Positions 19,601-26,592 of a stretch of DNA of 64,000 nt are shown piece after piece. Within the stretch, counting starts at the first letter, position 1; each line of letters starts with the position of its first letter. The notes under the pieces were generated by a model. That model ran no database searches. It saw nothing but the letters and a program-made list of their open reading frames with translations, and was not told the origin of the DNA. The DNA is from the human T2T-CHM13v2.0 reference genome, Homo sapiens: NCBI RefSeq assembly GCF_009914755.1, contig NC_060928.1; one strand, 5' to 3'. A program made the translations under genes and the position numbers.

Positions 19601-22066
19601 TCCAGTTTTTTTGTTTGGTTGATCTTTTGTATTTTTTTAATCTCAATTTTAATAATTTTTGCTCTGATCTTTCTTTTCTTCTAATTTTGAGTTTGGTTTG
19701 CTATTGCTTTCTCTTTAAAAGTTATTTTAGTTATTATTTTTGATGGGTTTTTCTTTTAGTCTACTAAAATATGCATGATTTATATACAACAATTACAGTG
19801 TTAGAGTATTCTGTATTTTTTATGTACTTATTATCACTAGTGAATTTTATTCTGTCAGATGATTTCTTGTTGCTCATAAACATTCTTCCAGATTGAAGAC
19901 CTCTCTTTAGCATTTTTTGTAAGGCACATCTAGTGCTACAAAATCCATCAGCTTTTGTTTGTCTGGGGAAGTCTTTATCTCTCCTTCATGTTTGAAGGAT
20001 AATTTTGCTGGATATAATATTCTAGGTTGGAACAGTTTTTTCCTTCAGCATTTTGAATGGGTCATTCCATTTCCTCCTGGCCTATGAGGTGTCCAGTAGG
20101 AATTCTGCTGTCAGAAATGTCAGAGCTCCTTTATATGTTATTTGTATATTTTCTCTTGCTGCTTTTAGGATCCTTTCTTTATCCTTCTCCTTTGAGTTTG
20201 ATAATTATATACCTTGAGGTAGTTGTATTTGGGTTAAATCTTCTTGGTGTTCTGTGATCTTTTCATACTTGGATATTCATACTGTAGGTTTGAAGAGTTC
20301 TCTGTAACTAAACTTTCTATTGCACTGTCTGTCTTTACATCCTCTTTAAGGCCAATAATTCTTAGATTTGCCCTTTTGAGGTTATTTTCCAGATCTCGTA
20401 GCCATGCTTTATTCTTTTTTATTCTTTCTTATTTTTCCCCCGACTGTGTATTTCCATATAGCCTGTTGTTGAGCTCATCAGTTTTTCCTTCTGCTTGATC
20501 AGTTCTGCTGTTGAGATTCTTTGATGATTTTTCAGTTTGTCATTTGAATTTTTCAGTTCCAGAATTTCTACTTGATTTTTAAAATTTTAATCTCTTAGTT
20601 AAATTTCTCTGATAGAATTCTGAATTCCTTCTCTTGTTTTCTTGATGTTCATTGAGTTTCCTCCAGACAGCTATTTTGAATTTCCTATCTGAAAGGAATA
20701 CCTTCATCACTCCAAGATTGGTCACTAGTGCCTTATTTAGTCCATTTGGTGAAGTCATGTTTCCTTGTGTGTCCCTGATGCTTTCGGATGTTCATTGATG
20801 TCTGGGCATTGAAGAGTTAGGTATTTATTCCAGTCTTTGCAGTCTAGTCTTGTTTGTACCCAACTTTCTTGACAAGGCTTTCCATGAATTCAAAGGGGAT
20901 TGAGTATTGTGATCTAAGCCTGCAATTACTGCAGCCATTTCAGCACTAGGGGGCGCCCTAAGCTCCGGAGCGCCTCAACTCTTTTTTTTTTTTTTGATTT
21001 TGTGTTTATTGTTTTTTATTAACCATTCACAGAAAAACATGCACCTAATATGCAACTTGAAAGTCCAGTTCACAACTCATGATTCAAAAAGCAGAAATTT
21101 CAAACCATTGTTTTCAGAAGTCCATAATATAAAATACTCCAAACATAAATTCAACATTGCATGCAGCAACTGGCCATTTGCTTCAAAAGAAGTGATCACA
21201 GTGTGTATATATTTAAAAAGAGAAACCTTTATTTGTATTATTTTTTAAAAAACTAAGAAGAAATACAACTTCAGAAAATCTTTTCCAGAATAAATATTTC
21301 TAGAAAATTGAAAAGTAACTAAAGACATTGAAAAGCAGAGCTTTATTAAGAAACATCTGTGGTGCAGATACGAATATTTAACTTAAAGCTGTGATGTGTA
21401 CCTAAACTTCAATGCATAAAATGTAAAGTTTAACATATCAAAACTCCAGGATTTTTAGCTTTGGATCATCTTAAAACTATAAGATAGCTCTTATCACATT
21501 TAAAGCAGTGTGTAGAGGGAAATTTATAGCACTAAATGCCCACAAGAGAAAGCAGGAAAGATCTAAAATTGACACCCTAACATCACAATTAAAAGAACTA
21601 GAGAAGCAAGAGCAAACACATTCAAAAGCTAGCAGAAGGCAAGAAATAACTAAGACCAGAGCAGAACTGAAGGAGATAGACACACAAAAAAACCCTTCAA
21701 AAAAATCAATGAATCCAGGAGCTGGTTTTTTGAAAAGATCAACAAAATTGATAGACCGCTAGCAAGACTAATAAAGGAGAAAAGAGAGAAGAATCAAATA
21801 GACACAATAAAAAATGATAAAGGGGATATCACCACTGATCCCACAGAAATACAGACTACCATCAGAGAGTACTATAAATTTCCCTCTACACACTGCTGTA
21901 AATGTGTCCCAGAGATTCTGGTATGTTGTGTCTTTGTTCTCATTGGTTTCAAAGAACATCTTTATTTCTGCCTTCATTTCGTTATGTACCCAGTAGTCAT
22001 TCAGAAGCAGGTTGTTCAGTTTCCATGTAGTTGAGCGGTTTTGAGTGAGTTTCTTAATCCTGAGTT

Positions 22067-22768
22067 CTAGTTTGATTGCACTGTGGTCTGAGAGTTTGTT
22101 GTAATTTCTGTTCTTTTACATTTGCTGAGGAGTGCTTTACTTCCAACTATGTGGTCAATTTTGGAATAAGTGTGATGTGGTGCTGAGAAGAATGTATATT
22201 CTGTTGATTTTGGGTGGAGAGTTCTGTTGATGTCTATTAGGTCTGCTTGGTGCAGAGCTGAATTCAATTCCTGGATATCCTTGTTAACTTTCTGTCTCAT
22301 TGATATGTCTAATGTTGACAGTGGGGTGTTAAAGTCTCCCATTATTATTGTGTGGGAGTCTAAGTCTCTTTGTAGGTCTCTAAGGACTTGCTTTATGAAT
22401 CTGGGTGCTCCTGTATTGGGTGCATATATATTTAGGACAGTTAACTCTTCTTGTTGAATTGATCCCTTCAACATTATGTAATGGCCTTCTTTGTCTCTTT
22501 TGATCTTTGTTGGTTTAAAGTCTGTTTTATCAGAGACTAGGATTGCAACCCCTGCCTTTTTTTGTTTTCCATTTGCTTGGTAGATCTTCCTGCGTCCCTT
22601 TATTTTGAGCCCATGTGTGTCTCTGCACATGAGATGGGTCTCCTGAATACAGCACACTGATGGGTCTTGATTCTTTATCCAATTTGCCAGTCTGTGTCTT
22701 TTAATTTGAGTATTTAGCCCATTTACATTTAAGGTTAATATTGTTATGTGTGAATTTGATCCTGTCAT
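22067..22768 (-). pseudogene. L1 ORF2 endonuclease domain, frameshifted just before the SDH catalytic His
   Basis: MTGSNSHITILTLNVNGLN...QETH...GDFNTPL...KIDH present; diverges at TEITTN where the consensus reads TEIITNYLSDH. Confidence 0.88.
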
Positions 22769-24855: not shown

Positions 24856-26592
24856 ACTGCAACTCTTGCAGACCCCTAAATACACTGCCTTGGTGAACTT
24901 GGATAAGATAAGGAAGATTCCCTAGGTTAGCAGGCAAAGTCACTTGCTCTCTTTTCTCTCTTTTCCCCAGTCAGAAGGAACCTCTCTCTGTACTAGGCTG
25001 CCTGGAGTTGAGGGAGAGGTGACACAGACTTTCCTGTGATCACCACAGCTGACACTACAGAGTCTCACCTGAAGGCTTGCAGACCAGCACAGTACTGGAG
25101 TTCACCAGTACTGGTAGCCACTACCGCCTAGCTGCTGCTGATGTTTATTCAAGGACCATGACCACTTTAGTCAGCAGGTGGTGAATCCTGCTGGGACTGA
25201 GTCTCTTCCATCAGGACAGTGCATTTTCTTCTGGCCCAGAATGGGTCTAGAAACACCATCTAGGAGCAAAGACTTGGAATTGGGGGCTTCGGGAATCTGC
25301 TAAGCTGGTGCCCAAGTTGCAAGACAAAGTCCTCTGTGCTCTTCCCACTCCATCCTCCACATGGAAGATGTCTCCCCAAGAGCTGCACTGCCTGGAACTG
25401 GGGAGGGGTGATACAGGCACTCCCTTAGCTGCCACAGTTGGTTTTGCCCTGGGTTGCATTCCAAGTCCACTGCCTCTGAGACTAGTGCAGCACCAGCGTT
25501 TGCCTGAGGACTGCAGTCCTTGTGGCCTGACTGCCACTCAAATTTATTCTGTGATCCAGGCCACTTTAGTCAGCTGGTGGGGAAGCCCCACTGGCCTGAA
25601 ACTGGGTTCTTCTCGCTGGAGTTGGGGATTCCCCTGTGGCCCACTGGTAGTCTGAATGCTCCCTCCATAGGCATTGACGGAATTCCTACCTGTGTTGTGT
25701 TCTGCTATGACAGAGCAGCACTGAGCTCCATTGTAAAGTCCCCCACTAACTTCACTCTCTCCTCCATGCACATAGACTCTGTCTCCTCAATGCACTGCCT
25801 GGGATTGCTGTAGTCAATGCAAGACTGTCTCTCCTACATTCTTGAATGCCTCTTTCCTTGATAAAAAGTACCTGGTTTGAACATAGGTACTTTTATCACT
25901 CACCTGATCTTTTTGTTCTTATGAAGATGCTTTCTTGCATGGATGGTTGTTCAATTTAGTGTTCCTGATGGGGGATTATTGCTCAGGGTTCTATCTGGCC
26001 ATCTTGCTCTGTCTCCTACTTCCTGGTTATTTTTAAAAACTTCTGTTTTCTTTTCAAAGAGAAAATTAGTAAAATAGAAAATAGTGCTGAAGAGATCACC
26101 CTAATACTAAAAATATGAGAGAGTTTAGGTTTATGAAGCATTCAATGAGAAGGTCCAACATACCTCTGAGTTCCAGAAGGAAAACCAAGAGGATAGGAAA
26201 CAGAACAATTAATGAAGATATAATAGTTGATAATTTTTGAGAGCTGATAAAATATATAGATCTTCAAATTCTAGAAGCTTAAGGCACAGTCAAAATTTTA
26301 AAAAAAATTCTACACGTAGATTAATGGGATTGGAAATACAGGACACCATAAACAAGGAGAAGGTTTTTAAAGCAGTCAGAGAGAAAAAGAAAGCTGAATT
26401 ATCTACAAAGAAAAAGGAATTAGCTAAGAGCAGACTGAACAGTAAAAATAAGGTCAGAATTTGGTAGAATTAAATAAATTCTTAAAACTACTTAATTTCA
26501 CTAAGAAATAAAATCTTAAAACTGCTGTGAGGATACATCATAATTATTTTAAGGAAAAAGAGAAAATATTATCACTATAACAACCTAGAATA

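What the first reader, a model, noticed from the sequence alone, without database searches (positions are those of the whole stretch)
20976..24867. Composite L1 insertion: intact 5' half, internal inversion and a foreign polyadenylated 3' end inside one TSD
Seen (minus strand 5' to 3'): complete L1 5' end, ORF1 and EN; then ~380 nt of the following ORF2 sequence in inverted orientation; then ~500 nt of non-L1 sequence; then AATAAA and an A-tail; all bounded by caactctt duplications within an older L1MA. The RT and L1 3'UTR are absent. Established: ordinary twin priming gives an inverted 5' piece followed by a sense L1 3' end, which is not this layout. Inference: either a non-autonomous, already rearranged source L1 transcribed into its flank and mobilised in trans (possibly with sibling copies), or a multi-switch insertion of a transducing RNA.
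Basis: partly seen in the sequence, partly recalled or inferred. Interest (0 to 1): 0.72.

Follow-up and report, generated by a model that had tools for sequence, protein, structure and literature searches.

The report
Scrambled L1 carrying X-chromosome DNA
A jumping-gene (L1) copy in a PTPN13 intron has its middle flipped, lacks about 2.8 kb and ends in 490 bases copied from chromosome X; it is likely a one-off read-through copy scrambled as it inserted, a dead fossil with an unusual layout but of a known kind.

Summary
The layout is real. On the minus strand lie an L1 5' half (24855-21868), a 373-nt inverted ORF2 piece overlapping it by 39 nt, three extra bases, 492 nt of unique DNA and an A-tail, inside an 8-bp duplication. 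Paralogous old L1s show the flanks abut with that 8-nt overlap (7 of 10 loci). The unique DNA comes from one other place, contig C23 (chrX) 137,886,982-137,887,469, 95% identical, about 6.3 kb past a RhoGEF gene (MCF2, name recalled), ending at a poly(A) signal. No source L1 sits there now. Both junctions occur once in the genome, so no sibling copies were found, and the 5' half is complete but not coding-intact. L1 part and unique part have aged alike (about 2.2% per lineage). Best reading: a 3'-transducing RNA from a since-lost chrX L1, inserted once, with a local inversion and 2.8-kb deletion made during integration (0.45) or afterwards (0.25). It is not ordinary twin priming or its published switching variants. 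A rare, non-canonical, dead insertion of moderate interest.

The parts
24860..24867 (-). Upstream copy of the 8-bp target-site duplication (caactctt on +); a weak 13-nt extension (10 of 13) is possible
   Evidence: flank abutment in paralogues
21868..24855 (-). Piece A: L1PA 5' half in sense orientation, from the 5' end through a ~1010-nt 5'UTR, ORF1 and the first ~900 nt of ORF2; 89-93% to the 35 near-full-length best copies scored
22832..23848 (-). ORF1, full length but with two premature stops
21868..22768 (-). ORF2 start (EN domain), frameshifted after about 225 codons and cut at the inversion
21868..21878 (.). A/B junction: 11-nt imperfect microhomology (9 of 11, 7 in a row) between the sense position and the inverted position
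   Evidence: alignment; null 8e-5 and 2.7e-4
21495..21867 (+). Piece B: 373 nt of ORF2 inverted; its first 39 nt duplicate the end of piece A; about 2.8 kb of L1 after it (RT, 3'UTR) is missing
21492..21494 (-). Three extra bases (ATA) at the B/C junction: untemplated or a remnant of the source L1's tail
21000..21491 (-). Piece C: unique DNA copied from C23 (chrX) 137,887,469-137,886,982, minus strand, K2P 4.5%; AATAAA at 21020-21015 and 21010-21005
20984..20999 (-). Degenerate poly(A) tail, not present at the chrX source
20976..20983 (-). Downstream copy of the target-site duplication

Best explanation
This is a single target-primed L1 insertion whose last 490 bases were copied from chromosome X, likely as a 3' transduction from a full-length L1 that no longer sits there, and whose middle was likely inverted and shortened by strand switching during integration. 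Shown: TSD, A-tail, chrX origin of the unique part, its end at a poly(A) signal, single copy, inversion with 39-nt duplication, 11-nt microhomology, 2.8-kb loss, equal age of parts. Inferred: an L1PA4-6-age source read through its own poly(A) signal into the chrX flank; reverse transcription reached the L1 5' end; synthesis of the second strand (or joining of two newly made ends) broke off near L1 position ~2,990, re-paired through the microhomology to the opposite-sense template about 335 nt ahead, copied back 373 nt and was joined to the start of the transduced piece, skipping RT and 3'UTR. The copy was dead on arrival and left no daughters that were found.
For: One TSD around everything, host L1 continuous across it in 7 of 10 paralogues. 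C matches one other locus at 95%, diverges from it 15 nt after the upstream hexamer (AATAAA here, AATACA at the source) and 5 nt after a second AATAAA, with a U-rich stretch downstream. A and B are equally close to the same six L1 copies (A 95.2-96.4%, baseline among the six 95.6%; B 92.9-96.5%, baseline 93.8%) and C differs 4.5% from its source: about 2.2% per lineage for both. The three L1 breakpoints lie within 373 nt; independent points would put B's end within 39 nt of A's end about 1% of the time, so the change is local to one molecule. Microhomology far above chance. C begins at TT|AGAG, a TT|ARRR site found at 36 of 6,798 positions between the gene end and the poly(A) site, as expected if a source L1 had been inserted there. 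Missing donors are common: TIGER found no clear full-length donor at source loci in three non-human primates bar one (PMC4862182, passages). De novo L1 insertions with template switches and end-joined cDNAs exist (PMC11702581 section 7; bioRxiv 2024.08.27.596794 section 4).
Against: No source L1 and no internal A-tail are seen, so two defining marks of a transduction are missing. The EN-site argument is post hoc and weak: AGAG occurs 0 times against AAAA 106 and AAGA 31 as whole words in the Law and Burns supplement tables. The chr4 target itself (GC|AAGA) is not a consensus EN site. Nothing here separates a change during integration from one after it; inversion plus adjacent deletion is a common germline SV class (159 cases, PMC12350158 passages). 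None of the models read gives a sense 5' end followed by an inversion.
Confidence: 0.45

Rival explanations
1. An ordinary full-length L1 with a 490-nt 3' transduction inserted first; later a replication or repair template switch made an inversion flanked by a 39-nt duplication and a 2.8-kb deletion (dupINVdel).
For: Geometry (small duplication on one side, deletion on the other, microhomology at one junction, 3-nt insert at the other) fits microhomology-mediated template switching; inversions with adjacent deletions are common in human SV sets and the authors note non-canonical insertions may be post-integration SVs (PMC12350158). The junction is a mosaic of both partners, as DNA-DNA annealing would give. 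About 20 Myr (recalled age) was available.
Against: Complex kb-scale rearrangements inside one 6.5-kb element are rare by base rate (my estimate, not computed from data); the right breakpoint falls within 3 nt of the start of the unique DNA if the EN-site reading holds, which suits a reverse transcriptase stalling at the internal tail.
Confidence: 0.25
2. The 3' piece is the end of a host read-through RNA (MCF2 transcription running 6.8 kb past its poly(A) site) primed in trans, joined to cDNA of a separate L1 RNA: a two-RNA chimera.
For: C lies on the same strand as, and 6.3 kb past, the presumed last poly(A) signal of a RhoGEF gene; no L1 at the source; two-RNA insertions are documented (9 cases, PMC11702581 section 7).
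Against: The transcript would pass about two dozen AATAAA/ATTAAA hexamers; C holds no exon junction and no upstream donor explains the ATA join; catalogued L1 chimeras have the L1 at the 3' end and the host RNA at the 5' end (PMC13174262 section 10); it still needs the extra inversion.
Confidence: 0.15
3. Two events: a full-length L1 was already here, and a second, twin-primed transducing RNA inserted into its A-tail, deleting its 3' half.
For: B followed by C and a tail is exactly a twin-priming product, with microhomology where the top strand would prime (PMC2912911 passages).
Against: Needs B to end within 39 nt of the break in the old copy (about 1%), the same subfamily and age for both, and a 2.8-kb gap where twin priming usually leaves under 20 nt in about half of cases (PMC12016303 passages).
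Confidence: 0.08
4. One reading: a source L1 on chrX was already rearranged, was transcribed into its flank and was mobilised in trans as a non-autonomous unit.
For: The unit keeps the L1 promoter and a poly(A) signal, so it could be transcribed and copied whole; the TSD and tail fit.
Against: No sibling: C has one other copy, junctions occur once each; no such element at the source; needs more steps than the others.
Confidence: 0.07

Closest known systems
L1 partnered 3' transduction
   Same: Unique DNA from another locus, ending at a downstream poly(A) signal, inside one TSD with an A-tail; length of a few hundred bases
   Different: L1 3' end and internal A-tail are absent; no donor L1 at the source in this genome
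Twin priming and its 5'/3' switching variants (Ostertag and Kazazian 2001, recalled; bioRxiv 2024.08.27.596794 section 4)
   Same: An inverted L1 piece joined to a short sense 3' piece, microhomology at a junction
   Different: In all three the 5'-most piece is inverted and the 5' end is lost; here the 5' end is complete and in sense, and the gap is 2.8 kb
Non-canonical, internally rearranged L1 insertions (PMC12350158; 5' end joined to 3' end example in PMC10415145)
   Same: TPRT hallmarks kept, several internal breakpoints, origin during or after integration left open by the authors
   Different: This one is about 20 Myr old (recalled age), combines inversion, duplication, deletion and transduction, and its exact layout was not described in the passages read
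Complex inversion SV with flanking duplication and deletion (MMBIR/FoSTeS type)
   Same: Three-breakpoint geometry, microhomology and small insert at junctions
   Different: All breakpoints lie inside one retrotransposed unit; timing unknown

Membership tests
L1 target-primed insertion | Target-site duplication around the whole insert | tested here: met
   8 bp; flanks abut with 8-nt overlap in 7 of 10 paralogues
L1 target-primed insertion | 3' poly(A) tail not templated by the source | tested here: met
L1 target-primed insertion | Endonuclease consensus at the target | tested here: inconclusive
   GC|AAGA: purine run present, TT absent
Partnered 3' transduction | Unique DNA from another locus ending at a poly(A) signal | tested here: met
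Partnered 3' transduction | Full-length sense L1 directly upstream of the source DNA | tested here: not met
   none in this genome; nearest full-length sense L1 is 95 kb away and of an older type (5'UTR 81%, ORF1 87%); a lost donor cannot be tested
Partnered 3' transduction | Internal A-tail between L1 and transduced DNA | tested here: inconclusive
   only three bases, ATA
Twin priming, with or without switching | 5'-most piece inverted, L1 5' end deleted | tested here: not met
   5' end complete and in sense; definitions
Twin priming, with or without switching | Microhomology at the priming junction | tested here: met
   9 of 11 nt at A/B; none at B/C
Non-autonomous composite element with daughters | More than one copy of the composite | tested here: not met
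Host mRNA-L1 chimera | Foreign part is the end of a host transcript | not testable with these tools
   no RNA data; C is 6.3 kb past the presumed gene end and unspliced
Post-insertion complex inversion (dupINVdel) | Inversion flanked by a duplication and a deletion | tested here: met
   39-nt duplication, 2.8-kb deletion
Post-insertion complex inversion (dupINVdel) | An unrearranged allele in an outgroup | not testable with these tools
   no primate genomes held

The most novel reading that the evidence does not exclude
The insert records an undescribed integration route: the growing second strand of a full-length L1 insertion acts as the internal primer, switches onto the still-attached RNA through a microhomology, copies back to where the RNA had been removed (hence the 39-nt overlap) and jumps to the transduced end. 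This would make promoter-retaining, internally inverted L1s a recurrent class hidden among 'non-canonical' insertions, and the chrX tag would mark an extinct source L1 just downstream of MCF2.
Probability: 0.25. Interest if true: 0.55.

Novelty: new variant of a known kind. Interest (0 to 1): 0.33.

Why it matters
How L1 completes second-strand synthesis is still unsettled (PMC7617806 passages). A sense-5', internally inverted insertion whose breakpoints cluster within 373 nt is the kind of product that constrains that step, if it formed during integration and if the layout recurs. The transduced tag also points to a source element that is no longer in the genome. As a single dead copy it has no shown function.

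Tried and rejected
Sibling copies: none; the one extra hit (chr6, 2 mismatches) is ordinary L1 sequence. Source L1 near the chrX segment: none in 180 kb; the full-length sense L1 95 kb upstream is older, and a short old L1 3' end 2.3 kb upstream is 5'-truncated. Splice join at B/C: five ATAAG|GT donor-like sites in 180 kb, two of them upstream of C, neither with sequence matching the junction. AGAG microhomology at B/C: possible only with 3-4 extra changes, set aside. Tracing A and B to one source by shared minority alleles in 8 copies (6 of the 40 scored plus 2 others): no consistent signal. Known RNA family in the insert: none. Literature: no paper on this locus in searches; PTPN13 and MCF2 occur 0 times in six supplement files of PMC13174262 (a seventh file was too large to read, and that catalogue covers 5' chimeras only). 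Gilbert 2005 and Ostertag 2001 are not held and may describe similar products; bioRxiv supplements were not seen. Earlier scan notes were not open.

Full report
Anatomy. Read on the minus strand the insert runs: target copy (24867-24860), L1 5' end at about 24855, a 5'UTR of about 1,010 nt, ORF1, the first 900 nt of ORF2 (piece A, to 21868), then 373 nt of ORF2 in the opposite orientation (piece B, 21867-21495), three bases ATA, 492 nt of non-L1 DNA (piece C, 21491-21000), a degenerate A-tail and the second target copy (20983-20976). B overlaps the end of A by 39 nt, seen as an inverted repeat with 95% complementary arms 334 nt apart (it folds as a long stem, z -6.2, which follows from the duplication and says nothing about function). 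About 2.8 kb of L1 beyond B is missing, measured against a neighbouring L1 in the window. ORF1 has two premature stops and ORF2 a frameshift, so the 5' half is complete but dead.

One insertion. Searching the two flanks separately, 10 old-L1 loci appear in both lists of 40 scored candidates; in 7 the flanks abut with exactly the 8-nt overlap, in 3 longer extrapolation gives 5, 17 and 54 nt. This stands in for an empty site: the host element is unbroken and the 8-mer is a real duplication. The chance estimate (1.5e-4) is too generous alone, since two of the eight bases merge with the tail.

Origin of piece C. It has one other match in the genome, 2 of 2 candidates counting itself: contig C23 (chrX by its length, recalled) 137,886,982-137,887,469, minus strand, 95%, K2P 4.5%. 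The match stops 15 nt after a hexamer that is AATAAA in the insert and AATACA at the source, and 5 nt after a second AATAAA; the source continues with U-rich sequence and no A-run. So a real transcript ended there. About 6.3 kb upstream on the same strand is a presumed gene end (AATAAA at 137,893,789), and a RhoGEF exon lies at 137,910,386-490; the name MCF2 is recalled, not from a call. In 180 kb of this region no L1 of the insert's type lies upstream of C; the nearest full-length sense L1 is 95 kb away and older (5'UTR 81%, ORF1 87%). C starts at TT|AGAG, a TT|ARRR site occurring at 36 of 6,798 positions in the interval, which would fit a source L1 once inserted there with ATA as the end of its tail. 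Against this, the test was post hoc and AGAG occurs 0 times against AAAA 106 and AAGA 31 in published cleavage-site tables, so it is weak support.

No family. The A/B junction (31 letters, up to 2 mismatches) gives the locus itself and one ordinary L1 on chr6; the B/C junction (32 letters, up to 3 mismatches) gives only the locus.

Age and unity. Piece A is 89-93% identical to the near-full-length copies among the 40 scored of 13,593 candidates. For six of them, A's ORF2 part is 95.2-96.4% and B 92.9-96.5% identical, matching the baselines among the six (95.6%, 93.8%). That is about 2.2% per lineage, the same as C. The 5'UTR length suggests it predates the 129-bp deletion that arose in L1PA3 (PMC6719617, passages); L1PA4-6 and about 20 Myr are inferred from recalled lengths and ages, not from a classifier.

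Mechanism. The A/B junction has 9 of 11 matching bases, 7 in a row, between the sense break and the inverted break; random pairs of positions reach that 8e-5 and 2.7e-4 of the time. All three L1 breakpoints lie within 373 nt; with independent breaks B's far end would fall within 39 nt of A's end about 1% of the time. The change is therefore local to one molecule. Ordinary twin priming and both switching variants begin with an inverted 5' piece and lose the 5' end (bioRxiv 2024.08.27.596794, passages and section 4 part 1 of 2), so this is not a member. I commit to one TPRT event of a transducing RNA with a strand switch during second-strand synthesis or end-joining (0.45). A later replication-type inversion with flanking duplication and deletion in an ordinary transducing insertion gives the same sequence (0.25). 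A chimera with a host read-through RNA (0.15), two insertions (0.08) and a pre-rearranged source (0.07) follow. The first two share the lost-source transduction (0.70 together); donors are often absent at source loci in primates (PMC4862182, passages).

What is known. Non-canonical insertions make up 15.7% of germline mobile-element insertions, half of them internally rearranged, with origin during or after integration left open, and 8.8% of L1 insertions carry transductions (PMC12350158, passages). Template switches, two-RNA insertions and captured extra cDNAs are described for new insertions (PMC11702581, passages and section 7; PMC10191854 and PMC10415145, passages). Also seen as passages only: PMC12016303, PMC2912911, PMC7617806, PMC2837659; PMC13174262 as abstract, sections 10 and 43 and supplement searches. 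I found neither this locus nor this exact layout in searches; two classic papers are not held, so the layout may be in print.

Verdict. Observation confirmed, interpretation half right. A new variant of a known kind, single, dead and without shown function; worth 0.33, more only if primate orthologues show it formed during integration and the layout recurs.

Noticed in passing
window 24407-24748 (+): An ORF0-like frame in the L1 5'UTR, 113 codons from an ATG, with a donor-like site near 24598; it points the same way as PTPN13, so antisense-promoter transcripts could splice into downstream exons. No RNA evidence; one literature search listed a single paper that was not read.
   Followed up: partly
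window 4064-7333 (+): A second, 5'-truncated L1 with an ordinary 3' end and A-tail, whose 5' cut lies about 110 nt before the position of the A/B break; probably coincidence.
   Followed up: partly
G000:C23:137905119-137907724: An L1 with a 219-nt piece inverted against the rest, in an intron of the RhoGEF gene; looks like ordinary twin priming.
   Followed up: no
G000:C23:137982300-137988438 (-): A full-length older L1 in sense orientation inside the RhoGEF gene.
   Followed up: partly
G000:C5:151931508-151934514 (-): Best relative of piece A by a margin (4485 against 4390 bits), but not closest for piece B; not shown to be a sibling.
   Followed up: partly
window 25533-25622: The RefSeq silencer lies in the 5' region of the old host L1, about 700 nt upstream of the insert, not in the insert.
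   Followed up: no
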